DNA of 24,356 nt from Deltaproteobacteria bacterium ADurb.Bin026. GTDB lineage: Bacteria > Desulfobacterota > Syntrophorhabdia > Syntrophorhabdales > Syntrophorhabdaceae. The DNA is taken from NCBI GenBank assembly GCA_002071245.1, contig MWEV01000010.1, positions 1 through 24,356 of the forward strand, in the 5' to 3' direction. A program made the position numbers and the translations under genes. The first letter of the stretch is position 1, and each line of letters opens with the position of its first letter. Below, one piece after another: positions 2 to 19,300 of the stretch. A model generated the notes under the pieces. The model saw only the letters and a program-made list of their open reading frames with translations, did not search any database and was not told where the DNA came from.

Positions 2-532
2 TTGATCGCAGCAACAACCGATGTTGCACTTGAAATAATAAAGGCCTTTCGTAACGATAATAAGGTATTATTTTGTGGCAATGGAGGAAGTGCAGCAGAT
101 GCACAGCATCTTGCGGCAGAGCTTTCTGGTAGATTTTATATTGATAGACCTCCACTGTTTGCAGAAGCGTTGCATGTAAACACATCTTATCTTACGGCTG
201 TTGCAAATGATTACTCATTCGATGAGGTATTTTCCAGACTGGTAAAAGCAAAAGGGAGAGCTGGCGATATTCTGGTGGGCATATCTACTTCCGGCAAATC
301 TAATAACATTATTAATGCCCTTATGACAGCGAAAGATGTGGGTATTGTAACGGTAGGTTTTTGTGGAGCGTATAGCTATGTAATGAGGAATTTTTGTAAA
401 TATGTTATCAGCATTCCTGCAGAGGATACACCAAGGATTCAAGAGGCGCATATCCTTATAGGACATATTATTTGCGAGATTGTAGAAAGGGATTTATTTG
501 GTGATGGAAAGGCCAGCAATTTTTCTCGATAG
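2..532 (+). CDS. gmhA: Sedoheptulose-7-phosphate isomerase (SIS domain), probably 5'-truncated by the window edge
   Basis: Motifs CGNGGSAADAQHLAAE, NDY, GISTSGKS and RIQEAH are typical of GmhA. The frame is open from the window start and looks short at the N-terminus. Stop TAG at 530-532 overlaps gmhB. Confidence 0.93.
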   Translation: MIAATTDVALEIIKAFRNDNKVLFCGNGGSAADAQHLAAELSGRFYIDRPPLFAEALHVNTSYLTAVANDYSFDEVFSRLVKAKGRAGDILVGISTSGKSNNIINALMTAKDVGIVTVGFCGAYSYVMRNFCKYVISIPAEDTPRIQEAHILIGHIICEIVERDLFGDGKASNFSR

Positions 533-1052
533 GGACGGGGTAATAAACAAAAAAATGTCGGAAGGAGACTATGTTAAAGACTGGAATGAATTTGAATTTT
601 TACCTGGTGTCATAAATGCTCTATGGAAATTGAAAAGGTCTGGATACATTATTATAATTGTTACGAACCAAAGATGTATAGCGAAAGGTATTATGGATGA
701 AAATAAGCTGCGAGAGATACACTCAAGGATGATCGGTCATTTTAAAAAAAATGGTATTGAAATAGATGGTATTTATGTCTGCCCCCATGATGAACCTGAT
801 AATTGTGATTGCAGAAAACCAAAGCCTGGTATGATTTTGAATGCAATAGATGATTTTAGAAACAAAGGGATAATAATCGACATCAAAAAGAGCTATATGA
901 TCGGTGACAGCGAAAAGGATATACTCGCTGGAAAGGCAGTCGGTTTGAAAACGATACGAATTGCAGAGGATATAATGGCTGATAACTGTTTGGTGAAAGA
1001 GAGCCTGTTGAGTGCAGTCACAGCAATAATTACCATGGAGGCAAGGGCTTGA
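504..1052 (+). CDS. gmhB: D,D-heptose-1,7-bisphosphate phosphatase (HAD family)
   Basis: HAD motif FLDRDGVIN, TNQ, Zn-binding CPH...CDCRKPKPGM and IGDSEKD. ATG at 504 is preferred over the TTG at 498. Confidence 0.92.
   Translation: MERPAIFLDRDGVINKKMSEGDYVKDWNEFEFLPGVINALWKLKRSGYIIIIVTNQRCIAKGIMDENKLREIHSRMIGHFKKNGIEIDGIYVCPHDEPDNCDCRKPKPGMILNAIDDFRNKGIIIDIKKSYMIGDSEKDILAGKAVGLKTIRIAEDIMADNCLVKESLLSAVTAIITMEARA
1037..1041 (+). promoter_or_regulatory. Shine-Dalgarno site for the hddA TTG start
   Basis: GGAGG lies 7 nt upstream of TTG 1049, which overlaps the gmhB stop (TTGA). Confidence 0.6.
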
Positions 1053-2041
1053 TAATAACAAGAACTCCCTTCAGAATCTCTTTTTTTGGAGGTGGAACAG
1101 ATTTGCCTGCATGGTACGAAGAAAACGGCGGAGAAGTATTATCTGTAGCCATAGATAAATATTGTTATATAAGTTTACGAAGACTTCCGCCTTTTTTTGC
1201 GTATAAACATAGGATTGTTTATTCCAAACATGAGACCGTTAACGAGATTGATGAGATTGTGCACCCCGCTGTAAGAGAGGCATTCAGATTTATGAAGATA
1301 AACGAAGGCCTTGAGGTTCATCATGACGGTGATTTACCGGCAAAATCCGGGCTCGGGTCAAGTTCGTCCTTCACGGTAGGGCTGTTGCATGCACTTTATG
1401 CCCTGCAGGGAAAAATAGTAACTAAAAGAAGGCTGGCACTCGAGGCCATACATATTGAACAGGATTTGATCAAAGAAAATGTTGGCTCTCAGGATCAGGT
1501 GGCCGTTGCTTTTGGGGGTCTTAATAAGATTACATTTAAGGGAAGGCACGATATAGATATTGTCCCAATAACCATCAACCGGCAAAGAATAGAGGAACTC
1601 CAAGATCATCTTTTGCTTTTTTTTACTGGTTTTACAAGGTATGCGGACAAGATTGAGGGTGAAAAGATAAAGCAGATGCCAATGAAAAGCGTGGAATTCG
1701 AGAGAATGAAAAGGATGGTAGATCAGGTGATAGAGATTCTAAACGGAAATGGAGATCTGATTGATTTTGGCAGGATGCTCAATGAAAGCTGGAAATTAAA
1801 GAAAAGTCTTTCAAGTCTTGTGACAACACCCCAGATAAACGATATCTATGAGCAGGCCATCAGACATGGTGCAGTAGGAGGAAAAATATTGGGAGCTGGA
1901 GGCGGAGGGTTTATTCTCTTTTTTGTTAAACCTGAAGACAGAAACAGGATTATTGGTGCACTGGCACCGCTTCTTTACGTTCCTTTTCGTTTCGACTTCC
2001 TCGGAAGCCAGGTTATATTTTACAGTGAAAGCGGGGTTTGA
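1049..2041 (+). CDS. hddA: GHMP-family D-glycero-alpha-D-manno-heptose-7-phosphate kinase
   Basis: MIITRTPFRISFFGGGTDLP, GHMP ATP loop DLPAKSGLGSSSSF, GSQDQ and GGKILGAGGGGF. It is flanked by gmhA, gmhB and an hddC-like gene. Confidence 0.88.
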   Translation: MIITRTPFRISFFGGGTDLPAWYEENGGEVLSVAIDKYCYISLRRLPPFFAYKHRIVYSKHETVNEIDEIVHPAVREAFRFMKINEGLEVHHDGDLPAKSGLGSSSSFTVGLLHALYALQGKIVTKRRLALEAIHIEQDLIKENVGSQDQVAVAFGGLNKITFKGRHDIDIVPITINRQRIEELQDHLLLFFTGFTRYADKIEGEKIKQMPMKSVEFERMKRMVDQVIEILNGNGDLIDFGRMLNESWKLKKSLSSLVTTPQINDIYEQAIRHGAVGGKILGAGGGGFILFFVKPEDRNRIIGALAPLLYVPFRFDFLGSQVIFYSESGV

Positions 2042-2044
2042 TTT

Positions 2045-3247
2045 ATGATTAGAATTCCTTTTGGTACGATAGCGGTTACAGATAGGTCAAAAGAGATTAT
2101 ATCGGAAATCCTCGACACAAAAAGGTTGTCTACCGGAAAATATGTAAGGGAATTTGAAAAGAGATTTGCAGCGCTTATCGGAGCGGAAGAAGCCGTTGCG
2201 GTTTCAACCGGCACTGATGCGGATGCGCTGGCTCTTGCTGTGCTCTATGATTTTGGTGCAGTTAGGGGTGATGAGATTATCGTGCCTGCACTTTCATTTG
2301 TAGCAACAGGCAATGCTGTTTTGCAGGCAGGGTTCACGCCGGTTTTTGTTGATATTGACAGGAAAACCTTGAATATTGATGTTGCAAAGATAGAAGAAGC
2401 AATCACAAAGAAGACTAAGGCGATTATGCCAGTTCATCTGATGGGCAAACCGGCTGATATGGACAGTATCAACAGGATTGCGCAGCAATACGGACTCTAT
2501 GTCATTGAAGATGCGGCAGAGGCTCACGGAGCTTCATATAAAGGAAAAAATGTGGGCACTCTTGGCGATATGGCAGCTTACAGCCTTTATGTCGCACATA
2601 TCATTACAACAATTGAAGGTGGTATTGTTGTAACAAACAGAACTGACTTTGCAGAGATATTAAGGTCATTGAGAAGCCACGGAAGGGCATGCAAGTGTGA
2701 AAGCTGTGTTTTAAATACAAGTTCGTCATATTGTCCTAAAAGATTCAGTCTTGGCGACAAGTCGGATATAAGGTTTATATTTGAGCGAATTGGATTTTCA
2801 TCGAAAATGAATGAGATCGAGGCTGCTGTGGGTATAGGTGCCCTCGATGTATTTAATGATGTGTTGAAAAAACGCAGAGAAAACCTTTATTACCTTATGG
2901 ATAAGTTTAGCAGGTTCGAACCATACCTGACTACTATAAAAAAGGAACCTTATGAAGACATAGGCCCTCATGCACTGCCTATTATAATAGAAGAAGATTC
3001 GCCTTTTACAAGGAACCAACTTGTCGATTTCATGGAAAAGAATGGCATCGATACAAGGAGTCTTTTCCAGTCGATGCCAACGCAATGCCCTGGATTTGCT
3101 TTCCTCAAAGCGAAAGCAAGTGGTTTTCCTAATGCAGAGTATATAGGCAACAATGGGCTACATGTAGGTGTTCATCAGGATTTGGGTTTAAAAGAATGTG
3201 ATTACATACTCGATACAATTCAGATATTCCTGAAAAAAAATACATAA
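2045..3247 (+). CDS. DegT/DnrJ/EryC1/StrS-family PLP/PMP enzyme with His at the catalytic Lys position; candidate nucleotide-sugar 3-dehydratase (RfbH/E1- or ColD-like chemistry)
   Basis: Family motifs VSTGTDA, GDEIIVPALSFVAT, PVHLMG and IEDAAEAHG. The active-site loop reads YSLYVAHIITTIEGG (His185, CAT at 2597-2599). A Cys-rich segment GRACKCESC...YC follows. The family call is secure; the reaction is inferred. Confidence 0.85.
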   Translation: MIRIPFGTIAVTDRSKEIISEILDTKRLSTGKYVREFEKRFAALIGAEEAVAVSTGTDADALALAVLYDFGAVRGDEIIVPALSFVATGNAVLQAGFTPVFVDIDRKTLNIDVAKIEEAITKKTKAIMPVHLMGKPADMDSINRIAQQYGLYVIEDAAEAHGASYKGKNVGTLGDMAAYSLYVAHIITTIEGGIVVTNRTDFAEILRSLRSHGRACKCESCVLNTSSSYCPKRFSLGDKSDIRFIFERIGFSSKMNEIEAAVGIGALDVFNDVLKKRRENLYYLMDKFSRFEPYLTTIKKEPYEDIGPHALPIIIEEDSPFTRNQLVDFMEKNGIDTRSLFQSMPTQCPGFAFLKAKASGFPNAEYIGNNGLHVGVHQDLGLKECDYILDTIQIFLKKNT

Positions 3248-3252
3248 AACTT

Positions 3253-3966
3253 ATGGTAGACGGCATAAAGACGGTCATTTTAGCGGGTGGCAAAGGTTCA
3301 CGCCTTCATGATGTTGTAAAGGATATTCCGAAACCTATGGCTCCTGTGATGAAAAAACCTTTCCTTGAATATATTATTTTACAAATATGCAGATGGGGCA
3401 TCAAAGAAATCATCATATCAGTCGGCTATAAAAAAGAGGTGATACGGGAATATTTTGCTGACGGCAGAAAATGGGGTGTTGACATAGTATATTGTGTGGA
3501 AGATGAGCCTTTAGGCACGGCAGGTGCTATAAGAAAGGCAATTTTATCATCAAATGCAAATCGTTATATAGCAATGAACGGGGATTCTTTTTTTGATATA
3601 GATATAAACAGGTTGATACGATATCATGAAGAAAAAAAGGCGGTGTTTACTATCGGGCTTGTGCATGTAGAAGATACGGGAAGATTCGGAAAGGTATTGA
3701 CAAGAGATAACGGAGAGGTTTTTGAATTCATTGAGAAGGGATGTAACGGCCGCGGAAACATAAACGGAGGGATATATGTCTTTGAGAGAGATATAGTCGA
3801 TTTTATTCCTGAAGGCATATGTTCTCTTGAAAATGATGTGTTGCCTAAACTGGTCAGTAAAGGCCTATACGGGATGGAAACAAAGACCTATTTTATCGAT
3901 ATTGGAATCCCAAAAGAATATGAATCTCTTTTCAACGATCCTCAACAGCTTTACGGAAGGATTTGA
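3253..3966 (+). CDS. hddC: Sugar-1-phosphate nucleotidyltransferase; probable heptose-1-phosphate guanylyltransferase
   Basis: ILAGGKGSRL...PKPMAPV, EDEPLGTAGA, NGDSFF, INGGIYVF and FIDIGIP. 237 aa with no C-terminal hexapeptide domain. It completes the gmhA/hddA/gmhB set. Confidence 0.82.
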   Translation: MVDGIKTVILAGGKGSRLHDVVKDIPKPMAPVMKKPFLEYIILQICRWGIKEIIISVGYKKEVIREYFADGRKWGVDIVYCVEDEPLGTAGAIRKAILSSNANRYIAMNGDSFFDIDINRLIRYHEEKKAVFTIGLVHVEDTGRFGKVLTRDNGEVFEFIEKGCNGRGNINGGIYVFERDIVDFIPEGICSLENDVLPKLVSKGLYGMETKTYFIDIGIPKEYESLFNDPQQLYGRI

Positions 3967-3975
3967 TAAGTAATA

Positions 3976-6552
3976 TTGGGTTTTTTAAAAATATTAAAAG
4001 ATTGTATAGGGGCATTTTCAGACAAGACTGACTACTACAGAATATGCTGGTATTTTGCAGGGCTAGCCCTGTTTTTTTATATCGATAAGATTTTTATGGG
4101 GTCTTTTGCCTTTGTAAGACTTCATGATGTTTTTGACTCCGATTACTCAAGGTATAAAATACTCGGAGAACTTTTTTATAAAAATGGTTTTTTTTCATGG
4201 TACCCTCACTATCTGGGGGGTCTGCCAGCATATGCATGGCACCACACACCCTTTTATATTTTATGTCTTGTGTCTTTGGTTGTGCCGTTATGGTTTATAT
4301 ATTCATTTCTTTGCTGTATGTGGATGTTTTTGGCAGGTTTTGGATTATTCAGGCTATTGAATGAATACCTGGGCATACCCAGGAAGTTTTCATTAGTTGC
4401 AGGATTGTTTTATTCAACAATTGTACAAATTCAACCGAATAGTATACCGCAGGTTGTATTCAATTATGCATTCCCTGTTTTCCTTGTATGGTTCCTCGAT
4501 CTGTTTAAAAATGTTTCAATAAGAAAGAAGATCATTCCTCTTGCAGGGCTCAACTTTTTATTATTGATTTCTTATCCTGTCCTGACTCTTCCTTATTATC
4601 CCTTGTTACATGTTGCAATGATTTTGTTTGTAGTGGATCCGGATAAATTACCTGCAGAAAGAAAATCGCTTGTAATAAAATCGTGTATTGTTTGGTTTGG
4701 ATACATCTTGATGAATCTCCCTGTTCTGTATAGCCTTTGGGATTATATACCATTGGCGGTGAAAAAAGTGGACCAAACTGTCCATATACAAACAAGTTTT
4801 GCAGGGATGCTTAAAGATTTTGTAGCACAGTCGTTTAACGGATTTTCGGAGGTAATGTCGAGAACACTGATGTTGATCCCGTTTGTAAGCGGCATTGCAT
4901 TTTTTTCTGTATCAAAAAATTTAAGGAATCTTTATATTCTATGGTTTGCAGTTTTTTTTGTAACAACATTTTTCACATCGAAAATATCTCTTATTTTAAA
5001 AGACAGTATTTTTTTAAAGATGGATCTCAGCCATTTCTCATGGACACTGCCGTTTTTGTCAATGTTAATTGCGTCTTTGAGTATCAATATGATAATCGAA
5101 AAGCAGAAGTCTTCTGCTTCATATAATATATTTTTGGTAACTGCTTTTCTTGTTTTATGTGCTATTGTGTTTTTATTGAATCTGCCGGTCTATTTGTTTA
5201 TAGCAAACATATATATCCTGATTATCATTATGTTGTTTTTAAGGTGTGTAAAATATGGAAAGCATCTTGACCATGCGATAAATATTGTACAGACAATAGC
5301 TCCAAAAAAGTTTATGCTGTGTTTGGTCATATCGATTTTTGCTCAAATAGCTATCATTTTGTTATTTTTTAAACCAAGGGCATATATGCTTATCAACATG
5401 GCGGTGTTTGTTGTTCCGATTGTGATGATGTTTGTCGTTGTGTCAGGACATATTAAGCATGGCATAAAAATGGCGAAGCCTGCGTGGATAAGGACGTTTT
5501 ACATTGCGACCCTGGTAAGCCTGTGTATGTTTTTGGTTTTACAGATAAGGATTGTGAGATTCAACGGCATGGAACCCGAGAAGTATTCATACAAACTTCT
5601 CGAAAGTTATACGGTACTCGATAAGATCAAGAAGAAGGAAACCGGTATTTACAGGATTGGAGCGGTCGGTGGCATACCTCACGTGGTGTTGGCTAACCAT
5701 GGGTTTGAGAGTATCGACGGACGGGGACCTATATCCAACCGTTATTTCAAGGATTATTTCAAATTGATCGTAAAGCCGCAACTGGCAGAAAAGAAGGATG
5801 AGTTGTTTTTCGATTCGTATTGGTATAATCTCTTTTTGACATGCGGAAGCGGTGATCAGAATTTTAACTATCCTCTTTTATCCCTTGCAAACGTAAAGTA
5901 CCTTGTATCATCCGATAACAGCCAGAAGGCTAAAGATTTATCTGATGTTGTAATGAAAGAGAGGAAATATCTTAACAATCTGTTTTACGATATTTTAAAT
6001 CCACCATTTGTCGGTAGTGACAACATGCTCAATATAAATGTATATAGGTTAAAAGAAACATTCGAAAGATGGTATCTTGCCAGTACACCGGTGATTGCGG
6101 TAAACCGCGACCAGACTCTGGATTTGCTCCTATCACAATCCGGCGACACCTTAAGAAATAATGTTATCTATGCACAGCCTGATATTGAAAAAGGTTATTT
6201 TGATAAATATGCACCGAAGAACGATCCAAGCGGAAAGATCGAATTATTGTCATATTCACCGGACAGGATAGTTTTGAATACAACAATTGCTGCACCAGCA
6301 ATAATGGTTATAACAAACAATTATGATAAAAGATGGGCCGCATATATCAACGGCGTAAAGACAAAGATTGTAAGGGCAAACCATGCCTTTCAATCCTTTC
6401 TGTTGGATAAAGCAGGGTCTCATAAGGTCGACATAAGATTTGAAGATAAATTGCTTTGGATGCTTCATTATGTGATGATATTCGGTTTTATTCTTTTAAA
6501 CGTTACATTGCTTCTAAATAGGTCAATTATGCCTTCAGGATCAGGAAAATAG
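3976..6552 (+). CDS. YfhO-like polytopic membrane protein (putative GT-C glycosyltransferase), copy 1
   Basis: 858 aa with many hydrophobic segments over about the first 530 aa. The early loop has acidic HDVFDSD and WYPHYLGGLP. The soluble C-terminal domain has YSPDRIVL...NNYDKRWAAYING...RANHAFQS, as in YfhO-family C-termini, and a final TM helix. The TTG start is uncertain. Confidence 0.72.
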   Translation: MGFLKILKDCIGAFSDKTDYYRICWYFAGLALFFYIDKIFMGSFAFVRLHDVFDSDYSRYKILGELFYKNGFFSWYPHYLGGLPAYAWHHTPFYILCLVSLVVPLWFIYSFLCCMWMFLAGFGLFRLLNEYLGIPRKFSLVAGLFYSTIVQIQPNSIPQVVFNYAFPVFLVWFLDLFKNVSIRKKIIPLAGLNFLLLISYPVLTLPYYPLLHVAMILFVVDPDKLPAERKSLVIKSCIVWFGYILMNLPVLYSLWDYIPLAVKKVDQTVHIQTSFAGMLKDFVAQSFNGFSEVMSRTLMLIPFVSGIAFFSVSKNLRNLYILWFAVFFVTTFFTSKISLILKDSIFLKMDLSHFSWTLPFLSMLIASLSINMIIEKQKSSASYNIFLVTAFLVLCAIVFLLNLPVYLFIANIYILIIIMLFLRCVKYGKHLDHAINIVQTIAPKKFMLCLVISIFAQIAIILLFFKPRAYMLINMAVFVVPIVMMFVVVSGHIKHGIKMAKPAWIRTFYIATLVSLCMFLVLQIRIVRFNGMEPEKYSYKLLESYTVLDKIKKKETGIYRIGAVGGIPHVVLANHGFESIDGRGPISNRYFKDYFKLIVKPQLAEKKDELFFDSYWYNLFLTCGSGDQNFNYPLLSLANVKYLVSSDNSQKAKDLSDVVMKERKYLNNLFYDILNPPFVGSDNMLNINVYRLKETFERWYLASTPVIAVNRDQTLDLLLSQSGDTLRNNVIYAQPDIEKGYFDKYAPKNDPSGKIELLSYSPDRIVLNTTIAAPAIMVITNNYDKRWAAYINGVKTKIVRANHAFQSFLLDKAGSHKVDIRFEDKLLWMLHYVMIFGFILLNVTLLLNRSIMPSGSGK

Positions 6553-6573
6553 GACGGATAATTTAAAATAAAG

Positions 6574-7248
6574 ATGAAATACGGTAAGCTTATTGCGATA
6601 GCAGTGCTTTTTCTAATTATGGTAGCCCTGTTCTTTTTGAGAAGACACGGTTACGTTGCCCCTGATAAAATATTTGAGTTCTTGAGGCTACATCCAATAT
6701 TGGCACCTTTTTTATTTATAATTATTTTTATGCTGCTGACGCTGTTTTTAGTGCCTACGCTTCCTTTAAACCTTGGCGCCGGTTTTTTATGGGGCCCAGT
6801 ATGGGGTACTGTTCTTACAATAATAGGCGCGACATTAGGGGCAATATGTTCATTTGGATTGTCAAGGTATCTTATAAAAGATTATTGCGGGGAAAGATTC
6901 CGTCATGCAATGTGGCTGCACCTCAAAGATTATATATCAAAATACAACTGGAAGGTAATCGCATTTGTGCGGATTGATCCGGTTTTTGCATCAGGACCTC
7001 TAAACTATTTTTTTGGTGTTACCTCGATAGCCTTTTCCACTTTTATCTGGTCTACCGCCCTTTTTTTTATACCACCAGCGTTTCTTTTTGCTTCTATAGG
7101 CAGTATCTTTGGATGGGTGGCAATCCAGGGGAATGCCTCCGATCTCATACGCAGCATCATTCTAGTTAGTGCCGGTGCCACGATTGTATGTCTGTTTCTT
7201 TTCCTTGCCAGGAAATGGGCGAGGAAGAATAGCAAGATTGATATATAG
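6574..7248 (+). CDS. DedA-superfamily TVP38/TMEM64 (VTT domain) membrane protein
   Basis: VPTLPLNLGAGFLWGPVWGTVLTIIGATLGAICSFGLSRY and RIDPVFASGPLNYFFGVTSIAFSTF...IP match the YdjX/TVP38 pattern. Confidence 0.85.
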   Translation: MKYGKLIAIAVLFLIMVALFFLRRHGYVAPDKIFEFLRLHPILAPFLFIIIFMLLTLFLVPTLPLNLGAGFLWGPVWGTVLTIIGATLGAICSFGLSRYLIKDYCGERFRHAMWLHLKDYISKYNWKVIAFVRIDPVFASGPLNYFFGVTSIAFSTFIWSTALFFIPPAFLFASIGSIFGWVAIQGNASDLIRSIILVSAGATIVCLFLFLARKWARKNSKIDI

Positions 7249-7258
7249 AGAGGAGCAT

Positions 7259-7963
7259 TTGAAGACAACATTATTAGTGATGACGCTTAACGAAATTGAT
7301 GGAATGAAGGCCATTATGCCGCGCATTAAAAGAGAATGGTTCGATCAGATAATCGTTGTCGACGGTGGTTCTACTGATGGGACAATAGAATATGCCAAGC
7401 AAGAAGGATATTCTTTTTATGTTCAAAAAAGGCAAGGCTTCAGGCATGCTTATTTTGAAGTTATGCCTCTTGTAGAGGGTGATGTAATAGTTACATTCAG
7501 TCCTGACGGTAATTCTATCCCGGAATTAATCCCTGAATTGATCGAGAAGATGAGGGAAGGGTACGATATGGTGATCGTGTCCCGATATCTCGGCAAAGCA
7601 AAAAGCGATGACGATGATTTACTTACAGGGTTCGGCAATTGGCTTTTTACCAAAACGGTGAATATCCTTTTCAAGGGTGACTATACAGATGCAATGGTCA
7701 TCTATAGAGCTTACAAAAAAAGCCTTATATATGATTTGGAGCTCGATAAGGACAAATGGTATACAACGCCTGAAAAACTTTTTTCGTGCAAGATAAGCTG
7801 GGAGCCTATGCTCTCTGCCAGGGCCGCAAAAAGAAAGCTAAGAATAGCTGAGATTCCCGGCGACGAACCACCTCGAATAGGTGGCGAGAGAAAGTTGCTT
7901 ATATGGCGTTGGGGCGCATCATACTATTTCCAGTTCTGGCGAGATTTTTTTATCTGGCACTGA
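7259..7963 (+). CDS. GT2 glycosyltransferase, DPM1/polyprenol-phosphate glycosyltransferase-like
   Basis: TLLVMTLNE, IIVVDGGSTDGT, FSPDGNSIPELIP, YDMVIVSRY and EIPGDEPPRIGGERK. The start is moved from the track's 7169, which overlaps the DedA gene, to TTG 7259 after GAGAGGAG (7248-7255). Confidence 0.85.
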   Translation: MKTTLLVMTLNEIDGMKAIMPRIKREWFDQIIVVDGGSTDGTIEYAKQEGYSFYVQKRQGFRHAYFEVMPLVEGDVIVTFSPDGNSIPELIPELIEKMREGYDMVIVSRYLGKAKSDDDDLLTGFGNWLFTKTVNILFKGDYTDAMVIYRAYKKSLIYDLELDKDKWYTTPEKLFSCKISWEPMLSARAAKRKLRIAEIPGDEPPRIGGERKLLIWRWGASYYFQFWRDFFIWH

Positions 7964-12770: not shown

Positions 12771-13115
12771 ATGAAGCTGAACGTTAAAGAACATCCACGG
12801 GAATTCAACGCCTCGGGGATTACAATAAAAGACTATGGTAAGATAGAATTGAATGAAAACGATATGATAACGCTGATTACAGAAAGCGGCAAAGAATGTG
12901 ATATAACGGCCAAAGAATGGGGTTTTTACCTCGCACCATCACTAAACGCAAGGTTGAGACAAAATGGATTCAAGGTTGCGTTGGTGAGGAATCAAGAGGG
13001 CAAGCTGTTTATAAATGCAGTGGAAATTGACAAAACAGTTCAGTTCATAGAATATCTGAGTGCAAATCAAGATAGCAGAATATTATGCTGGCTTGATGAT
13101 TGGCCTTCGCAATAG
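12771..13115 (+). CDS. Small soluble protein of unknown function (114 aa)
   Basis: ATG lies 1 nt after the upstream stop and 5 nt after GAGGA (12761-12765), and the ORF fills the gap exactly. The core KEWGFYLAPSLNARL resembles an uncharacterised family I recall from glycan loci; this is unverified. Confidence 0.75.
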   Translation: MKLNVKEHPREFNASGITIKDYGKIELNENDMITLITESGKECDITAKEWGFYLAPSLNARLRQNGFKVALVRNQEGKLFINAVEIDKTVQFIEYLSANQDSRILCWLDDWPSQ

Positions 13116-13121
13116 AGTCAA

Positions 13122-15629
13122 TTGTTCAGTATGGGTTTAATGTTCACTGACAAATTGTTGTCATGTTGTGATGCAAAACAGGCGAAGCGGGTTTCAGTTA
13201 ACAATCTGTTTGCATTTGTTTGCTATGTGTTTGTTGGATTAATCTATCTTACACCCGTTTTTTTCTTTGGGAAAAGCTTATTGATTGATGCCTGGGACCA
13301 TGTCCCTACATATGTAAGAATGGTTGACAGGGCCCAATGGCTATCCCAACTCATGATTCCTTTATGGGATCCTAAAACCTTCTCTGGACTGTCATTTGTC
13401 GACAGTGTTCCTACTACACACATTCTTAATTTACAGCCATGGATAATGGCCTTTGCTGGTAATCATACTGGCTACGCGATCTGCATTTTTATGTTCATAA
13501 CATTTGGTGCATATGGCACCTATCTGCTCTGCTATCGGAAACTGCAGATCAATTGGGGATTGTCATTATGCGCAGGCAGCACTGTAGTGTTTGGTCCATT
13601 TATCGGCAATGCGTATTCGAGCGTCTTTGTCTTTTTTCCGTTTATAAGCTTCTACTTCTATAATTTCATGAACATTTTTGAGAAAAGCAGTATCCGTAGA
13701 ATATTGTATAACTCAATACTTGCTTCTTTTCCTGTTGTGCTGTGCATGTATACCCAGGAGCCAAGATTCATTGAATTCATTTTTTACAGCAGTATCCTTT
13801 ATTTTATTACCATGATCTTTGTAAATAACGACAGGAAGGCCTTGATCTTCAAGCAGACCGTTCTTTTTGCTCTTTTTGCAGGCGTTTTATGCGTCCTTAT
13901 GTCAGGACCCATGATATTTCCTATGGTTCTGGAGGTGTTTAAGCAGCAAAGGATTGGAGCAGGTGAGATACTTCCACGAATTATCTCTTTTCCACCATGG
14001 CTGTATCTTTTAAATGTTGTTGTGGGCAATTTATATCCTCTAAATCTTACGGTATTACATGATACCCTCAGAGTCAAATTATTAGGGAGTTATTTTACGC
14101 TCTATTTTGAGTTTGTTCATATACTGTTTTATGCGGTGCTCTTTGTGTCTATCAAGTTTCTCCATAAATTCAGTACAGTGGAAAAAAGTATAATTCTAAG
14201 CGCTATAGTTTTGAAAATAATTATTGCAGTGCATGCTTATGTGCCAGGATTTATGTATTTTTGGACACTGATATTCAAAACAGGACGATTTCTGGAAAAC
14301 GATACATCATTTTTCTTTAGCGCTCTTATGGTATTTATTGTGCTAAACAAGATTATAAAAGGGGATATTACTTTGGAAGGTAAGCTGCACACTTTTTCAA
14401 GCTGGCTTATCAGTATTCAAATATTGATTTCGGTTGTATTAATTGTTTTTCTGATTTACCTGAGATTCTTTTTTGATGTTAATATGTTGCTTGAAGTTGC
14501 CGGAATGCAGCATTATCTGAGTTATCTCGGCGACGTAAACCTGTTGATGGATTCTTTCAAAAGCAGATTTCCTTATCTGATACCAGGATTGGTTTGCATA
14601 ATTATTCAATTATCGATTTTCAGAGAATTAATGAGGAACAAAAGTATTGCACGGTACAAAATCAGCCTTTTCATGGTAATGCTTTTTTGTACACCGTTAT
14701 TTCTATCGAAGGCTTATTGGCCGTTTAACAATATCGTCGAAAGGGATAAGATAGAAACACCCGACAGACAGTTTTTATCATCCCTAAACATTCTTGACAG
14801 AGTAAACAACGTTGATCATGATGCAAACAAACTTAGCGAGGGTATGAAGACAAAAATCATATCTATTCACTCAAATGAGTCTTTGGAATGGGCAATAAAA
14901 TGCTATCCACCGGCTATGATGTCGTTTATACATCATTTTATACCCGTTGATATGTATAAGTATTTCAATTATATGTACAAAGACGAGAAAAGCATAAAAA
15001 GCCCCTATCAGCGTTTTTATTTCTATCCTCAAGACAACAATCTCTTCCATTTGCTTGGAATAAACTATTTCTTTTCCGAATTGCCTGTCCATGACAGCCC
15101 TTTTGAAGCGTCTGGAAGATTTGGCAATTACTTTGTATATAAGAATCCGCACGCTTTTCCAAGGTTCTATTTTGCAGATTCAGTCTTTTTTATTGAAGAC
15201 AATGATTCTATTTTAGGTAAGTTGTATTATACGCCAATTAAGAAGTTGAAAACAGAGGTGTTTGTGAACGCCGTGGGCAGAGGAGATGGGGAGCAGTTTT
15301 TCAGCAATAAAAAAAGGGATGTTTCCCTTATCATGTATTCTCCTAATAAAATCACCCTTAAAACCGAATCTCCCGGCAGGCAGTTTTTGGTGTTGACAGA
15401 TACTTTTGACAAAAGATGGAATGCATATATCGATAAAAAACAAATCAATACATACAAGGCTAACTTTTTGTTCAGAGGTGTTATGATTCCTCCTGGTATC
15501 CATACGGTCGAGTTCCAGTACTGTTATCCTGAATTCAAGATTTATGTTTTAATTGCTGTTTTGACTTTTTTATCATGTATATCGATTGTCTGTATTGTTA
15601 ATAAATATAACGATGTTCCAACAGGATGA
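13122..15629 (+). CDS. YfhO-like polytopic membrane protein (putative GT-C glycosyltransferase), copy 2
   Basis: 835 aa and highly hydrophobic. The early loop has DAWD...LWDPKTFSGLSF. The C-terminal domain has YSPNKITL...DTFDKRWNAYID...KANFLFRGVMIPPGIHTVEFQY and a final TM helix. The start could be TTG 13122 or ATG 13131. Confidence 0.75.
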   Translation: MFSMGLMFTDKLLSCCDAKQAKRVSVNNLFAFVCYVFVGLIYLTPVFFFGKSLLIDAWDHVPTYVRMVDRAQWLSQLMIPLWDPKTFSGLSFVDSVPTTHILNLQPWIMAFAGNHTGYAICIFMFITFGAYGTYLLCYRKLQINWGLSLCAGSTVVFGPFIGNAYSSVFVFFPFISFYFYNFMNIFEKSSIRRILYNSILASFPVVLCMYTQEPRFIEFIFYSSILYFITMIFVNNDRKALIFKQTVLFALFAGVLCVLMSGPMIFPMVLEVFKQQRIGAGEILPRIISFPPWLYLLNVVVGNLYPLNLTVLHDTLRVKLLGSYFTLYFEFVHILFYAVLFVSIKFLHKFSTVEKSIILSAIVLKIIIAVHAYVPGFMYFWTLIFKTGRFLENDTSFFFSALMVFIVLNKIIKGDITLEGKLHTFSSWLISIQILISVVLIVFLIYLRFFFDVNMLLEVAGMQHYLSYLGDVNLLMDSFKSRFPYLIPGLVCIIIQLSIFRELMRNKSIARYKISLFMVMLFCTPLFLSKAYWPFNNIVERDKIETPDRQFLSSLNILDRVNNVDHDANKLSEGMKTKIISIHSNESLEWAIKCYPPAMMSFIHHFIPVDMYKYFNYMYKDEKSIKSPYQRFYFYPQDNNLFHLLGINYFFSELPVHDSPFEASGRFGNYFVYKNPHAFPRFYFADSVFFIEDNDSILGKLYYTPIKKLKTEVFVNAVGRGDGEQFFSNKKRDVSLIMYSPNKITLKTESPGRQFLVLTDTFDKRWNAYIDKKQINTYKANFLFRGVMIPPGIHTVEFQYCYPEFKIYVLIAVLTFLSCISIVCIVNKYNDVPTG

Positions 15630-17071
15630 AAATGAAAGCAAATCAAAACGCTTTTGAGAGATATCAGAAGAAAAGACAATCTCATTGGGACGACATTGCT
15701 CTTAGAATGGATGATTCGAAAAGCATGGGTTCTTATTATCACAGGAGATTGGAGCAGGTATATAGGTTTCTTGTTCATCCAGGACAAAAAATCCTTGAGA
15801 TAGGTTGTGGACAAGGCGATCTGCTTGCATCCTTGAGCCCGCAGATAGGGGTTGGAATTGATTTTTCTATTAATATGATAAATAGAGCAAGTCAAAGATA
15901 CCCCCAACTCCGGTTTATAAACATTGATGCATACGATCTTGATCTGAATGATACATTCGATGCCATCATCCTGTCTGATATTGTCAACGATCTTTGGGAT
16001 GTACAGACTGTTTTCGAAAAGATAGCCAAGCATACAACACCAGAGACAAGGATTATTCTTAACCTGTATAGCCATTTATGGGAACAACCCTTGACGCTTG
16101 TACAGAAACTTGGCTTGGCAACACCAACCCTTCCCCAAAACTGGCTGACCGTGGAAGACATATGCAACCTTTTTTATTTGACAGGTTTTGAGATTATCCG
16201 TCACTGGGAGGAAGTTCTCTGGCCCCTTGATACCCCTGTTTTATCATCGTTTTTCAATCGTTACGTCGCAAAGTTGTGGCCTTTCAAGAAACTTGCCCTC
16301 ACAAATTTTATATTGGCACGTCCGAGTCCGAGAGAGCCTGAAATGAACAAGGAAAAGAGCGTATCTATTATCGTGCCTGCACGCAATGAGGCGGGGAATA
16401 TCGAAAGCATACTCGAAAGAACCCCGAAGATGGGCAGAGAAACAGAGATAATCTTTGTAGAAGGTCACTCTAAAGACAATACTTACGAAACCATTGAAAA
16501 GGCAATTGCAAACAGTTCGCTGCATAAATGCAAACTTTTCCGACAGACAGGCAAAGGCAAGGGTGACGCCGTAAGGCTCGGTTTTGAAAAGGCAAGTGGG
16601 GATATTTTGATGATACTTGATGCAGACATGACGGTGCCACCAGAAGACCTCCCGCGTTTCTATGAGGCTTTAAGATACGGAAAGGCGGAATTTGTAAACG
16701 GTGTTAGGTTAGTCTATCCGATGGAAAAACAGGCGATGCGTTTTTTCAACCTTCTTGGGAATAAATTTTTCAGCATAGCTTTCTGCTGGCTTTTAGGACA
16801 GCCGCTCAAGGACAGCCTTTGCGGAACCAAGGCCCTTACCAAAATAAATTATAATAAGATCGTGGAGAATAGGTCATATTTCGGCGACTTTGATCCATTC
16901 GGCGACTTTGATCTTATTTTTGGTGCAGCGAAATTGAACTTGAGGATTGTCGATATGCCGATACGTTATAGGGAGCGTGTTTACGGGGAGACGCAGATAA
17001 GCAGGTGGAGACATGGATGGTTACTTCTCAAGATGGTTGTTTTTGCAGCCTGGAGAATCAAATTTGTATGA
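15626..17071 (+). CDS. Bifunctional class I SAM-methyltransferase-like / GT2 glycosyltransferase fusion
   Basis: N-terminal SAM motif ILEIGCGQG. C-terminal GT2 with SIIVPARNEAGNI, FVEGHSKDNT, GKGDAV, ILDADM and LKDSLCGTK. ATGA overlap with the upstream stop. Confidence 0.87.
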   Translation: MKMKANQNAFERYQKKRQSHWDDIALRMDDSKSMGSYYHRRLEQVYRFLVHPGQKILEIGCGQGDLLASLSPQIGVGIDFSINMINRASQRYPQLRFINIDAYDLDLNDTFDAIILSDIVNDLWDVQTVFEKIAKHTTPETRIILNLYSHLWEQPLTLVQKLGLATPTLPQNWLTVEDICNLFYLTGFEIIRHWEEVLWPLDTPVLSSFFNRYVAKLWPFKKLALTNFILARPSPREPEMNKEKSVSIIVPARNEAGNIESILERTPKMGRETEIIFVEGHSKDNTYETIEKAIANSSLHKCKLFRQTGKGKGDAVRLGFEKASGDILMILDADMTVPPEDLPRFYEALRYGKAEFVNGVRLVYPMEKQAMRFFNLLGNKFFSIAFCWLLGQPLKDSLCGTKALTKINYNKIVENRSYFGDFDPFGDFDLIFGAAKLNLRIVDMPIRYRERVYGETQISRWRHGWLLLKMVVFAAWRIKFV

Positions 17072-17847
17072 AATTGATGCTCCAATCATTGCTCCAACAC
17101 CCTTTGACGAAAGGGCTTAACATAGATGACCCGGATACTACACGGCTTAGACGCAGTATTATTCAAAAAAAAATTTTTTTAAAAAAGATTTATGAGGAAT
17201 GGTATACGCTTCTCGATGATTCCTTACCAGCAGATCTTGCTGGCAGTATATTGGAGCTTGGTTCGGGAGCAGGATTTTTAAAGGAGATCATGCCGGATGC
17301 TATTACTTCTGAAATATTTTATGTTTCAGGAATTGATGTAGTGCTGGATGGGTGTGAATTACCTTTCAAAGAGGAAACATTATCCGGGATCCTTATGACC
17401 AATGTGTTTCATCACCTGACGGATATAAAAAGTTTTTTGAAGGAATCTAACCGTTGCGTGAGACAAGGTGGTATTATTGCAATGATTGAGCCATGGGTAA
17501 CCCCTTTATCCATGTGGGTATACAGGAATCTTCATCATGAGCCTTGCGAAATGGAGTCAAAAGAATGGGGTTTTCAAGGGAAAGGCCCACTGTCGTGTGC
17601 AAACAGTGCTTTAGCCTGGATTATTTTCCAGCGTGACAAAAAAATATTTGAATCCGAGTTTCCACAGTGGAAGATCCAAAAAATAGAACCAATAATGCCT
17701 TTTCTCTACTTAATATCTGGCGGTATTTCTCTAAGAAGCCTCCAACCGGGATGGAGCTATTGTTTTTGGCGCCGAGCGGAAAATATTTTTAAACCTGTAT
17801 GGAACAAAATGGCTATGTTTGCGCTTATTATATTAAGGAAGAATTGA
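17068..17847 (+). CDS. Class I SAM-dependent methyltransferase
   Basis: ILELGSGAGFLK, LPFKEETLSGILMTNVFHHL and GGIIAMIEPW. The start is moved from 17005 to ATG 17068, which gives an ATGA overlap with the upstream stop. Confidence 0.85.
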   Translation: MKLMLQSLLQHPLTKGLNIDDPDTTRLRRSIIQKKIFLKKIYEEWYTLLDDSLPADLAGSILELGSGAGFLKEIMPDAITSEIFYVSGIDVVLDGCELPFKEETLSGILMTNVFHHLTDIKSFLKESNRCVRQGGIIAMIEPWVTPLSMWVYRNLHHEPCEMESKEWGFQGKGPLSCANSALAWIIFQRDKKIFESEFPQWKIQKIEPIMPFLYLISGGISLRSLQPGWSYCFWRRAENIFKPVWNKMAMFALIILRKN

Positions 17848-17851
17848 AAAT

Positions 17852-19297: not shown

Positions 19298-19300
19298 AGT

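What the first reader, a model, noticed from the sequence alone, without database searches (positions are those of the whole stretch)
2..7963. Complete GDP-alpha-heptose pathway directly upstream of a GT-C / DedA / DPM1-like GT2 trio: possible polyprenyl-phosphate-heptose route
Seen: gmhA-gmhB-hddA-(PLP enzyme)-hddC is followed after 9 nt by the YfhO-like gene, then DedA and GT2. No GT4/GT9-type cytoplasmic heptosyltransferase is recognisable in the window. Established: GmhA/HddA/GmhB/HddC make GDP-D-glycero-alpha-D-manno-heptose for S-layer glycans and capsules, and DPM1-type GT2s use GDP-mannose. Inference: the GT2 could load a GDP-heptose derivative onto a lipid carrier. I know of no well-characterised polyprenyl-P-heptose donor.
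Basis: inference. Interest (0 to 1): 0.62.

Follow-up and report, generated by a model that had tools for sequence, protein, structure and literature searches.

The report
Lipid-carrier route for a modified heptose
The genes that make and reshape an activated seven-carbon sugar (GDP-heptose) sit directly beside a small enzyme of the kind that loads single sugars onto a membrane lipid carrier. The two travel together in bacteria of many phyla, which points to a lipid-linked heptose donor for cell-surface glycosylation that I found no description of in the searched literature and that nobody has tested biochemically.

Summary
Window 2-7963 encodes GmhA, GmhB, an HddA-like kinase, a His-type (E1/ColD-like) PMP 3-dehydratase and an HddC-like guanylyltransferase. 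Nine nucleotides later come a GT-C-fold membrane protein, a DedA protein and a 234-aa GT2 whose model is closest to ArnC, DPMS and GtrB.

The GT2 is 62-80% identical across many phyla. Of 79 loci, 41 carry cassette genes in cis: HddA, HddC, a Cj1427-like GDP-heptose C4-dehydrogenase, a 3-dehydratase, a ThDP enzyme and a B12-radical-SAM enzyme. Of the 38 genomes without it in cis, 33 have the Cj1427-like gene elsewhere and 4 more have an HddA-like gene. The background in the same phylum is 2.5% and 11%.

The contig that joins upstream holds no heptosyltransferase. It holds the missing tailoring genes.

The GT-C partner changes family between loci while the GT2 stays constant, which favours "same donor, different acceptors".

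The sugar is probably a 3-deoxy, possibly C-branched heptose, not plain heptose. There is no biochemistry. In Planctomycetota a GT4 follows the cassette and is a rival consumer. This scan has proposed the same idea before on other DNA.

The parts
2..532 (+). gmhA (sedoheptulose-7-P isomerase), 5'-truncated by the contig end; its start codon lies on contig C244 (L003:170, minus strand)
   Evidence: SIS_2 83 bits. TIGR00441 186 bits and NF010546 179 bits over profile positions 31-195. The 75-nt in-frame overlap with C244 supplies the missing N-terminus. It is the only gmhA found in the MAG.
498..1052 (+). gmhB (HAD-IIIA heptose-1,7-bisphosphate 7-phosphatase)
   Evidence: NF006506 165 bits, TIGR00213 132 bits, NF050049 (alpha-anomer GmhB domain) 118 bits.
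1049..2041 (+). HddA-like GHMP kinase (heptose-7-P 1-kinase)
   Evidence: The best NCBIfam hit is NF049969 HddA, 147 bits, below its cut-off of 600. The best PDB hits are the heptose kinases 3k85, 4usk and 4n3o, E 1e-34 to 1e-37. Orthologues of 50-66% identity lie in the cassette of other phyla.
2045..3247 (+). PMP-dependent sugar 3-dehydratase (E1/ColD type), not an aminotransferase
   Evidence: DegT fold 333 bits. The best PDB hits are E1 3bcx at 207 bits and ColD at 192-197 bits. His185 sits at the Lys position, as in 40 of 40 cassette homologues. The CxCxxCx8C cluster is shared only with the window-type subset.
3253..3966 (+). HddC-like sugar-1-P guanylyltransferase
   Evidence: NF049965 HddC 178 bits (cut-off 300) and Man-1-P guanylyltransferase 190 bits. 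The best PDB hit is Yersinia HddC 5xhw/6jq8, E 7e-38.
3976..6552 (+). GT-C-fold membrane glycosyltransferase candidate with a YfhO-like C-terminal beta domain
   Evidence: No Pfam hit. The AF2 model has pLDDT 88.6. Foldseek top hits are AftD, AftA, AglB, STT3, ArnT and PglB. VIA gives Z 16.0 to AftD (573 aligned) and 12.3 to STT3, and the top 28 rows are all GT-C. D37 and D51 just after TM1 are near-invariant in 54 homologues. The C-terminus is 28% identical to the window's YfhO protein.
6574..7248 (+). DedA/VTT-family membrane protein (carrier-lipid flippase or recycler candidate)
   Evidence: PF09335 69 bits, with only a weak UptA hit of 19 bits. A DedA homologue sits next to the GT2 in 17 of 79 loci from different phyla.
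7259..7963 (+). 234-aa GT2, candidate polyprenyl-phosphate (modified heptose) synthase
   Evidence: PF00535. The best NCBIfam hits are AglJ, Dol-P-hexose transferase, ArnC and PpgS. The best PDB sequence hits are PfDPMS, ArnC and GtrB. The AF2 model has pLDDT 93.8 with a C-terminal aromatic amphipathic helix at 215-232. Foldseek top hits are ArnC, DPMS (TMq 0.78) and GtrB. It is 62-80% identical across phyla and linked to the heptose cassette in cis or trans in 78 of 79 genomes.

Best explanation
Window 2-7963 is the downstream half of a conserved, horizontally spread cassette.

The proposed pathway has three stages.

1. Sugar activation. [quoted passage not shown] This is inferred from family membership.

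2. Tailoring. Genes on the joining upstream contig and in the window then modify it.
- A Cj1427-like SDR oxidises C4.
- The His-type PMP enzyme (2045-3247) removes the 3-OH.
- A split transketolase-type ThDP enzyme and a B12-radical-SAM enzyme probably add carbon.
- An Fcl-like SDR epimerises and reduces.
The order of these steps and the final structure are inferred.

3. Transfer. The 234-aa GT2 (7259-7963), a membrane-peripheral relative of DPMS, ArnC and GtrB, transfers the finished sugar from GDP to polyprenyl (undecaprenyl) phosphate. After flipping, the GT-C protein (3976-6552) uses this lipid-phosphate-sugar to glycosylate an envelope acceptor outside the cytoplasm. DedA (6574-7248) either flips the loaded carrier or returns free polyprenyl phosphate.

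What is shown here: the folds, the family placements, and the conserved linkage between the GT2 and the cassette. What is not shown: the donor sugar, the lipid acceptor and the final acceptor.
For: GDP-heptose logic:
- HddA and HddC have heptose enzymes as their best solved relatives.
- The upstream SDR2 matches PDB 6vo6/6vo8 at 403 bits over its full length. From memory, that entry is Cj1427, the GDP-heptose C4-dehydrogenase. Its function is documented in PMC10680097 and PMC7949155.
- SDR3 is Fcl-like at 401 bits.
- The PLP enzyme has the His-for-Lys dehydratase signature in 40 of 40 cassettes.
- Cj1427 plus a C3-dehydratase makes GDP-3-deoxy-4-keto-heptose in vitro (PMC10680097).

GT2 as a lipid-phosphate sugar synthase:
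- Its top sequence and fold matches are only DPMS, ArnC and GtrB.
- It ends in an amphipathic aromatic helix.
- 48 of 79 loci have a protein of at least 450 aa with at least 7 TM segments within 5 kb, and about 30 of these lie directly downstream.
- The window's partner has a GT-C fold.

Linkage:
- The cassette is in cis in 41 of 79 loci.
- It is in trans in 33 of 38 further genomes, and an HddA-like gene is present in 4 of the remaining 5.
- The background in the same phylum is SDR2 in 5 of 197 genomes and HddA in 22 of 197.

Donor rather than acceptor:
- The GT2 is 62-80% identical across phyla, while its membrane partner changes family: GTC1, DUF6311, DUF6798, YfhO-like and several unnamed families.

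No other consumer:
- No Leloir GT4, GT9 or GT1 lies in the 39 kb of window plus upstream contig.
Against: - There is no biochemical datum for any member of this GT2 clade.
- The GT2 lacks transmembrane helices.
- It has SPDGN where DPMS has DADLQ: only the second Asp of the DXD motif is kept.
- In Planctomycetota and Omnitrophota the cassette is followed by a GT4, a 280-aa GT2 and a deacetylase, while the conserved GT2 sits elsewhere. A cytoplasmic GT could therefore consume the GDP-sugar there.
- Co-occurrence alone cannot separate 'the heptose is the donor' from 'a heptose-containing glycan is the acceptor'.
- The window has a second DPMS-like GT2 (15626-17071) that could be the heptose loader instead.
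- One GT2-positive assembly (L010) shows neither HddA nor SDR2.
- Genomes are related and the cassette is mobile, so the counts are not independent.
Confidence: 0.6

Rival explanations
1. The trio is an ordinary three-component decoration system. The GT2 loads a common sugar (Man, Glc or similar) onto undecaprenyl phosphate. The GT-C adds it to a glycan that happens to contain the modified heptose, which cytoplasmic GTs encoded elsewhere put in place. The genes then co-occur because the heptose glycan is the acceptor, not the donor.
For: - DPMS, GtrB and ArnC-type enzymes with known substrates use hexose, HexNAc or pentose donors (PMC11127046).
- In Planctomycetota a GT4 and a second GT2 directly follow the cassette.
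- The MAG is only 87% complete, so other GTs may be missing from the assembly.
Against: - The GT-C partner, which should recognise the acceptor, belongs to different families in different loci, while the GT2 is 62-80% identical. That is the reverse of what an acceptor-based link predicts.
- A GT2 using a universal donor would not need to track HddA in 78 of 79 genomes.
- In many loci the GT2 is the last gene of the sugar operon.
- No cytoplasmic GT lies in the 39 kb here.
Confidence: 0.2
2. The GT2 does use the modified GDP-heptose, but as a peripheral Leloir enzyme. It transfers the sugar directly to a non-polyprenyl acceptor on the cytoplasmic face, such as a glycolipid, a lipid-linked oligosaccharide or a small molecule as with GpgS. 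The GT-C and DedA genes act on something else.
For: - It has no TM helices and is only 234 aa.
- GpgS and MpgS (soluble GT-A enzymes) form the second tier of fold hits.
- The DXD motif is atypical.
Against: - The top 18 fold matches are exclusively polyprenyl-phosphate GTs. DPMS aligns over the whole length, including its interface helices (TMq 0.78).
- A large polytopic protein is a recurrent immediate neighbour, and DedA is adjacent in 17 loci.
- From my knowledge, short TM-less polyprenyl-P GT2 enzymes exist, such as human DPM1 and M. tuberculosis PpgS. PpgS gives only a weak NCBIfam hit here.
Confidence: 0.12
3. The heptose genes and the trio are unrelated neighbours in a large mosaic glycan locus, and the adjacency has no functional meaning.
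For: The 39-kb operon mixes several pathways: nonulosonic acid, amidotransferases, a carbamoyltransferase and a second GT2/YfhO module.
Against: The same adjacency recurs in Desulfobacterota, Verrucomicrobiota, Omnitrophota, Planctomycetota, Cyanobacteria, Proteobacteria, Nitrospirota and Saccharibacteria. Whole-genome co-occurrence is near complete.
Confidence: 0.03

Closest known systems
Three-component extracytoplasmic glycosylation systems: GtrA/GtrB/GtrC (Shigella, Salmonella), CsbB/GtcA/YfhO (Bacillus, Listeria), and the polyprenyl-phosphoribose synthase/MATE/GT136 system (PMC11127046)
   Same: A GT2 or other synthase charges undecaprenyl phosphate with one sugar, a flippase exports it, and a GT-C enzyme transfers it outside the cytoplasm. 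The GT2 fold and the GT-C fold are both found here.
   Different: - The inferred donor is a GDP-heptose derivative, not UDP-Glc, UDP-GlcNAc or PRPP.
- The GT2 has no TM helices.
- There is no GtrA, SMR or MATE flippase. A DedA protein sits in that place.
- The sugar-synthesis genes are in the same operon.
Arn (pmrHFIJKLM) pathway: ArnA/ArnB tailoring of a nucleotide sugar, ArnC loading onto Und-P, ArnE/F, ArnT
   Same: One operon joins SDR and DegT-fold tailoring of a nucleotide sugar to a DPMS-like GT2 and a GT-C enzyme. ArnC is among the top structural matches of the GT2, and ArnT is among the matches of the GT-C. From my knowledge, DedA proteins are needed for Ara4N modification in several species.
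   Different: - The starting sugar is GDP-heptose, not UDP-glucuronate.
- The DegT-fold enzyme is a 3-dehydratase (His for Lys), not a transaminase.
- ThDP and B12-radical-SAM steps are added.
- The acceptor is unknown, and lipid A is not implied.
Campylobacter jejuni capsular GDP-heptose modification pathways: GmhA/HddA/GmhB/HddC, Cj1427 C4-dehydrogenase, PLP C3-dehydratase, C4-reductases (PMC10680097, PMC7949155)
   Same: The enzyme families are the same. SDR2 scores 403 bits to 6vo6, which from memory is Cj1427. The 3-dehydratase is of the ColD/E1 type. An Fcl-like reductase is present.
   Different: - In C. jejuni the GDP-heptoses are used by cytoplasmic capsule glycosyltransferases.
- Here the cassette ends in a polyprenyl-phosphate-type GT2.
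- It also carries ThDP and B12-radical-SAM enzymes that the C. jejuni pathways lack.
Polyprenyl/dolichyl-phosphate mannose synthases (Pyrococcus DPMS 5mlz; actinobacterial Ppm1; human DPM1) with GT-C mannosyltransferases
   Same: The donor is GDP-linked and manno-configured. The fold match is the best of all: TMq 0.78 over 244 columns. From my knowledge, human DPM1 also lacks TM helices.
   Different: Sequence identity is only about 23%. The motif is SPDGN instead of DAD. The genomic link is to heptose genes, not mannose genes.
Yersiniose-type branched 3,6-dideoxy sugar synthesis (E1/E3 3-deoxygenation followed by the ThDP enzyme YerE); comparison drawn from my own knowledge
   Same: A His-type PMP 3-dehydratase is paired with a ThDP-dependent C-C bond-forming enzyme acting on a 4-keto nucleotide sugar.
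   Different: - The ThDP enzyme here is a split transketolase or a PDH-E1 alpha/beta pair, not a YerE-type flavoenzyme.
- The nucleotide is GDP and the sugar is a heptose.
- The branching itself is only inferred.

Membership tests
Polyprenyl-phosphate glycosyltransferases of GT2 (DPMS/GtrB/ArnC type) | GT-A fold closest to solved members of this group | tested here: met
   The model has pLDDT 93.8. Foldseek ranks 1-18 are ArnC, DPMS (TMq 0.78) and GtrB. GpgS follows only after them.
Polyprenyl-phosphate glycosyltransferases of GT2 (DPMS/GtrB/ArnC type) | Metal-binding DXD (DAD) motif | tested here: inconclusive
   The aligned motif is S81-P-D83-G-N85, against DADLQ in PfDPMS. P82, D83, G84 and N85 are invariant in 35 homologues. 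The first Asp is missing.
Polyprenyl-phosphate glycosyltransferases of GT2 (DPMS/GtrB/ArnC type) | Membrane-interface amphipathic helices after the catalytic domain | tested here: met
   Helices 166-191 and the aromatic and basic C-terminal helix 215-232 (LLIWRWGASYYFQFWRDFFIW) are present. The alignment to DPMS spans 244 columns.
Polyprenyl-phosphate glycosyltransferases of GT2 (DPMS/GtrB/ArnC type) | C-terminal transmembrane helices (present in GtrB, ArnC and PfDPMS; absent from human DPM1 and PpgS, from my knowledge) | tested here: not met
   The protein is 234 aa and ends after the amphipathic helix, with no hydrophobic span. This feature does not define the whole group.
Polyprenyl-phosphate glycosyltransferases of GT2 (DPMS/GtrB/ArnC type) | Transfers a monosaccharide to polyprenyl phosphate | not testable with these tools
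   This needs an enzyme assay with C55-P and candidate nucleotide sugars.
GT-C glycosyltransferases | GT-C membrane fold | tested here: met
   The model has pLDDT 88.6. VIA gives Z 16.0 and rmsd 5.2 over 573 aligned residues to AftD, and Z 12.3 over 443 aligned to STT3. The top 28 rows are all GT-C. The Foldseek top hits are GT-C only.
GT-C glycosyltransferases | Conserved acidic residue(s) in the first extracytoplasmic loop | tested here: met
   D37 and D51 (motif RxHDxFD) are at least 90% conserved in 54 homologues and follow TM1, which spans 20-34 in the model. That the loop faces outward is inferred from the fold, not computed.
YfhO family (PF09586) | Match to the Pfam YfhO model | tested here: not met
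   There is no Pfam hit even at E 0.1. Only residues about 675-822 resemble the C-terminus of the window's YfhO protein: 28% identity by BLASTP, hhalign probability 98.5%.
[quoted passage not shown] | All four enzyme families present and adjacent | tested here: met
   HddA and HddC score below the NCBIfam equivalog cut-offs, but heptose enzymes are their best solved relatives.
[quoted passage not shown] | A downstream enzyme specific for GDP-heptose | tested here: met
   The upstream SDR2 scores 403 bits over its full length to PDB 6vo6/6vo8. The mapping of that entry to Cj1427 is from memory. The enzymology is in PMC10680097.
[quoted passage not shown] | Product is GDP-heptose (substrate specificity of the kinase and the nucleotidyltransferase) | not testable with these tools
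   This needs enzyme assays. An octose or another sugar is not formally excluded.
E1/ColD PMP-dependent sugar 3-dehydratases | His replaces the PLP-binding Lys of DegT aminotransferases | tested here: met
   VAHIITT aligns with PAHHIT of E1 and GNKIITT of an aminotransferase. His is found in 40 of 40 cassette homologues, and Lys in the two true DegT controls.
DedA/VTT family; UptA-type undecaprenyl-phosphate transporters | VTT domain; match to the UptA equivalog | tested here: inconclusive
   PF09335 scores 69 bits, so the domain is present. NF052604 UptA scores only 19 bits against a cut-off of 250. There is no solved relative.

The most novel reading that the evidence does not exclude
The 234-aa GT2 clade is the synthase of a so far undescribed lipid-linked donor: polyprenyl-phosphate carrying a 3-deoxy, probably C-branched or C-methylated heptose made from GDP-heptose. 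This donor module has spread by horizontal transfer through more than ten bacterial phyla. It is plugged into interchangeable GT-C enzymes (GTC1, DUF6311, DUF6798, YfhO-like) to decorate different envelope acceptors, and DedA serves as its carrier-lipid transporter.
Probability: 0.5. Interest if true: 0.75.

Novelty: new variant of a known kind. Interest (0 to 1): 0.64.

Why it matters
From my knowledge, all characterised polyprenyl-phosphate monosaccharide donors carry hexoses, HexNAc, pentoses, Ara4N or uronic acids. A full-text search for undecaprenyl- or polyprenyl-phosphate-heptose terms found nothing.

A lipid-linked heptose would add a sugar class to extracytoplasmic glycosylation. It would also give a function to several parts that currently have none:
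- a very widespread and very conserved orphan GT2;
- several orphan membrane families (DUF6311, DUF6798 and the GTC1 family);
- a ThDP, B12-radical-SAM and 3-dehydratase cassette that should make an unknown higher sugar.

It would also offer a genetic handle on what DedA proteins transport. Some orthologue-bearing genomes are isolate assemblies, not MAGs: Methylobacter tundripaludum, Brucella endophytica, Spirulina sp. and Gemmata sp.. The idea should therefore be directly testable.

Tried and rejected
Contexts came from the search for related loci and the genome search instead.
- Profile-to-single-sequence hhalign of the GTC1 family against the other large neighbours (DUF6798, DUF6311 and f30 proteins) gave nothing. 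That they are GT-C enzymes is therefore assumed only from size, TM count and position, and was not shown.
- The 114-aa ORF at 12771-13115 was checked as a possible GtrA flippase. It is soluble and was rejected.
- I considered that the split transketolase merely supplies sedoheptulose-7-P. In other loci the same slot is filled by a PDH-E1 alpha/beta pair, which favours C-C bond formation on the nucleotide sugar. This is not proven.
- I considered that the PLP enzyme is a transaminase making an amino-heptose. The His at the Lys position rejects this.
- I considered an E1-type Fe-S cluster as a general feature. The Cys motif is confined to the window-type subset.
- The PDB code 6VO6 could not be tied to Cj1427 in the held literature. 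The mapping is from memory.
- Literature searches for DUF6311/DUF6798 and for HddA + HddC + radical SAM + transketolase found nothing relevant.
- The sequencing-run and read-laying tools were not used.

Full report
**Observation**

The window is a whole contig (C10) of a 1.85-Mb, 87%-complete MAG. RNase PH on the adjoining contig is 82-85% identical to Syntrophorhabdaceae proteins. LpxC is present, so the organism is probably a diderm Desulfobacterota relative.

All genes in the window run on the + strand. Positions 2-7963 encode, in order:
- GmhA, which is cut by the contig end;
- GmhB;
- an HddA-like GHMP kinase;
- a DegT-fold PLP enzyme;
- an HddC-like nucleotidyltransferase;
- after 9 nt, an 858-aa polytopic protein;
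- a DedA/VTT protein;
- a 234-aa GT2.

HddA and HddC score below NCBI's equivalog cut-offs. Their best solved relatives are nevertheless heptose-7-P kinases (3k85, 4usk, 4n3o) and Yersinia HddC (5xhw/6jq8).

**Upstream of the window**

Contig C244 (14.7 kb) overlaps the window start by 75 nt in reverse orientation. It supplies the missing 31 N-terminal codons of gmhA in frame.

On it the same operon continues upstream, after an HTH regulator:
- a cytidylyltransferase;
- a GFO/IDH/MocA oxidoreductase;
- a PseC-like DegT aminotransferase;
- an SDR;
- a GNAT acetyltransferase;
- a NeuB-type synthase;
- SDR2;
- SDR3;
- a split transketolase;
- a B12-binding radical SAM enzyme, whose stop overlaps the gmhA start.

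No GT4, GT9 or GT1 is present.

SDR2 matches PDB 6vo6/6vo8 at 403 bits over its full length. [quoted passage not shown] Its enzymology is described in PMC10680097 and PMC7949155. SDR3 is Fcl-like at 401 bits.

The PLP enzyme in the window has E1 (3bcx) and ColD as its closest solved relatives and carries His at the catalytic Lys position. It is therefore a PMP-dependent 3-dehydratase, not a transaminase. PMC10680097 shows that Cj1427 plus a C3-dehydratase yields GDP-3-deoxy-4-keto-heptose in vitro.

The sugar made here is therefore very likely a tailored GDP-heptose: 4-oxidised, 3-deoxygenated, and then modified by the ThDP enzyme, the radical-SAM enzyme and the Fcl-like reductase. The last three steps are inferred.

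**The trio**

The GT2 model is confident (pLDDT 93.8). Its best structural matches are exclusively polyprenyl-phosphate glycosyltransferases: ArnC, Pyrococcus DPMS (TMq 0.78 across the whole protein) and GtrB. GpgS follows only after them. Sequence searches agree.

The GT2 has no transmembrane helix. It ends in an aromatic, basic amphipathic helix. Its DXD motif is reduced to SPDGN, which is invariant in the clade.

The 858-aa protein has no Pfam hit. Its model (pLDDT 88.6) matches only GT-C enzymes at the top of both Foldseek and VIA-align, with Z 16.0 to AftD and 12.3 to STT3, and 28 GT-C rows before anything else. Two Asp residues directly after TM1 are near-invariant in 54 homologues. Only its C-terminal beta domain resembles YfhO.

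The trio is therefore a lipid-carrier glycosylation module of the Gtr/Arn type, with DedA in the place where a flippase is expected.

**Comparative test**

The GT2 has more than 7,500 homologues. The best 120 are 73-81% identical and come from very different phyla.

In species-representative genomes I obtained 79 loci at 62-76% identity. They come from Desulfobacterota, Omnitrophota, Planctomycetota, Verrucomicrobiota, Cyanobacteria, Proteobacteria, Nitrospirota, Saccharibacteria and others.

BLAST of all locus ORFs against the window and upstream proteins shows a recurrent cassette immediately upstream of the GT2: SDR2, HddC, HddA, SDR3, a ThDP enzyme, the PLP enzyme, the B12-rSAM enzyme, and sometimes NUDIX and DedA. 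The ThDP enzyme is either a split transketolase or a PDH-E1 alpha/beta pair.
- 41 of 79 loci carry at least one marker.
- 30 of 79 carry at least two.
- 23 of the 40 loci with full 10-kb flanks carry at least two.

The His-for-Lys signature is present in 40 of 40 cassette PLP enzymes. 3-Deoxygenation is therefore a constant feature.

gmhA and gmhB are in the cassette only in a minority of loci. This is as expected if most diderms share them with ADP-heptose synthesis. In this MAG the window's gmhA is the only copy found, and an RfaE-like gene lies next to a GT9 elsewhere.

A second context class is found in Planctomycetota and Omnitrophota. There the GT2 is followed by a 630-aa membrane protein with a DUF6798 C-terminus, then by housekeeping genes. 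In these genomes the cassette exists at another site.
- 22 of 22 genomes tested have a Cj1427-like gene at 49-70% identity.
- The 12 fetched regions show the cassette around it.
- Of the remaining 16 genomes without a cis cassette, 11 have the Cj1427-like gene.
- 4 of the other 5 have an HddA-like kinase.
- One assembly has neither.

In a 201-genome sample of the window's own phylum:
- the GT2 occurs in 4 genomes;
- the Cj1427-like gene occurs in 8, including 3 of those 4;
- HddA occurs in 26, including all 4.

The background among GT2-negative genomes is therefore 2.5% for the Cj1427-like gene and 11% for HddA. These genomes are not independent and the cassette is clearly mobile, so I give no p-value. 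The association is far beyond what adjacency in one mosaic locus could give.

**Donor or acceptor?**

Co-occurrence alone would also arise if the module decorated a heptose-containing glycan with an ordinary sugar. Two observations argue for the donor reading.

First, the GT2 is the most conserved gene of the set, while its large membrane neighbour changes family between loci: GTC1, DUF6311, DUF6798, YfhO-like and unnamed families. 48 of 79 loci have a protein with at least 7 TM segments within 5 kb. In three-component systems the GT2 fixes the donor sugar and the GT-C fixes the acceptor.

Second, in the window and in many other loci the GT2 closes the sugar operon and no cytoplasmic GT is nearby.

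Against the donor reading:
- In Planctomycetota the cassette is directly followed by a GT4, a 280-aa GT2 and a deacetylase, which could consume the GDP-sugar in the cytoplasm.
- The window holds a second DPMS-like GT2, fused to a methyltransferase.

**Literature and the scan's earlier notes**

The held literature gave no paper on undecaprenyl- or polyprenyl-phosphate heptose. It gave none on DUF6311/DUF6798 or on the HddA, HddC, radical SAM and transketolase combination. The closest described systems are the three-component systems reviewed and extended in PMC11127046.

Within this scan the same proposal has been made repeatedly on other DNA. Those notes are not independent evidence. My tests here agree with them. 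They add the cis and trans co-occurrence counts for this particular GT2 clade and the upstream contig of this genome.

**Verdict**

I put the lipid-linked modified-heptose reading at about 0.6. The alternatives are:
- an ordinary-sugar decoration of a heptose glycan, at about 0.2;
- a direct, non-polyprenyl transfer, at about 0.12.

It is a new variant of a known kind of system. The orthologues in isolate genomes make it directly testable.

Noticed in passing
L003 (contig C244) 5316-11059, minus strand; joins upstream of window position 1: A nonulosonic-acid-type gene set starts the same operon: a cytidylyltransferase, a GFO/IDH/MocA oxidoreductase, a PseC-like DegT, an SDR, a GNAT and a NeuB-type synthase at 292 bits. 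No sialyltransferase-like or Maf-type transferase is visible in the 39 kb.
   Followed up: partly
window 13122-20299: A second lipid-carrier module is present: a YfhO protein, a methyltransferase fused to a DPMS/ArnC-like GT2 (62 bits to 5mlz), a methyltransferase, a B12-rSAM enzyme and an LPG_synthase_TM protein. Homologues of the MT-GT2 fusion and the MT follow the conserved GT2 in L028 and L063.
   Followed up: partly
window 2681-2734 (PLP enzyme residues 216-233): The CxCxxCx8C cluster aligned with the Cys-rich segment of E1 is conserved only in the window-type subset of cassette dehydratases (for example L004, L019, L025, L030, L074, L098, L099). It is absent or deleted in the ColD-like and planctomycete versions.
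   Followed up: partly
L012, L044, L046, L068, L069: Two paralogues of the conserved GT2 (56-75% identical to the window's) lie in the same locus, sometimes separated by a radical SAM gene.
   Followed up: no
L039, L045, L047, L048, L054, L057, L060, L070, L079 and others: In Planctomycetota and Omnitrophota the GT2 and a DUF6798 membrane protein sit at a fixed site upstream of gpsA, a PilZ gene, hom, thrC, a DFP-domain gene and apgM. The heptose cassette lies elsewhere and is followed by a GT4, a 280-aa GT2 and a TPR-deacetylase.
   Followed up: partly
L007, L008, L023, L073, L040, L056, L061, L097: NUDIX hydrolase genes recur inside or next to the cassette. They are possibly GDP-sugar hydrolases of the Gmm/WcaH kind.
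   Followed up: no
cassette slot between hddA/SDR3 and the PLP gene, many loci: The ThDP enzyme is a split transketolase in some loci and a PDH-E1 alpha/beta pair in others, at the same position. L044 and L068 carry two TK pairs.
   Followed up: no
G069:C9:12489-13475 (same family as the MAG): The closest HddA orthologue (67% identity) is read through one in-frame TGA. G103 shows the same.
   Followed up: no
L003 13853-14584: RNase PH has a 95% identical relative labelled Prolixibacteraceae, while all other named relatives (82-85% identical) are Syntrophorhabdaceae. That record is probably mis-binned or mislabelled.
   Followed up: no
window 23670-24356: The last ORF of the contig (229 aa, open at the 3' end) has no significant family hit. 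The operon probably continues beyond the window, and no overlapping contig was found.
   Followed up: partly
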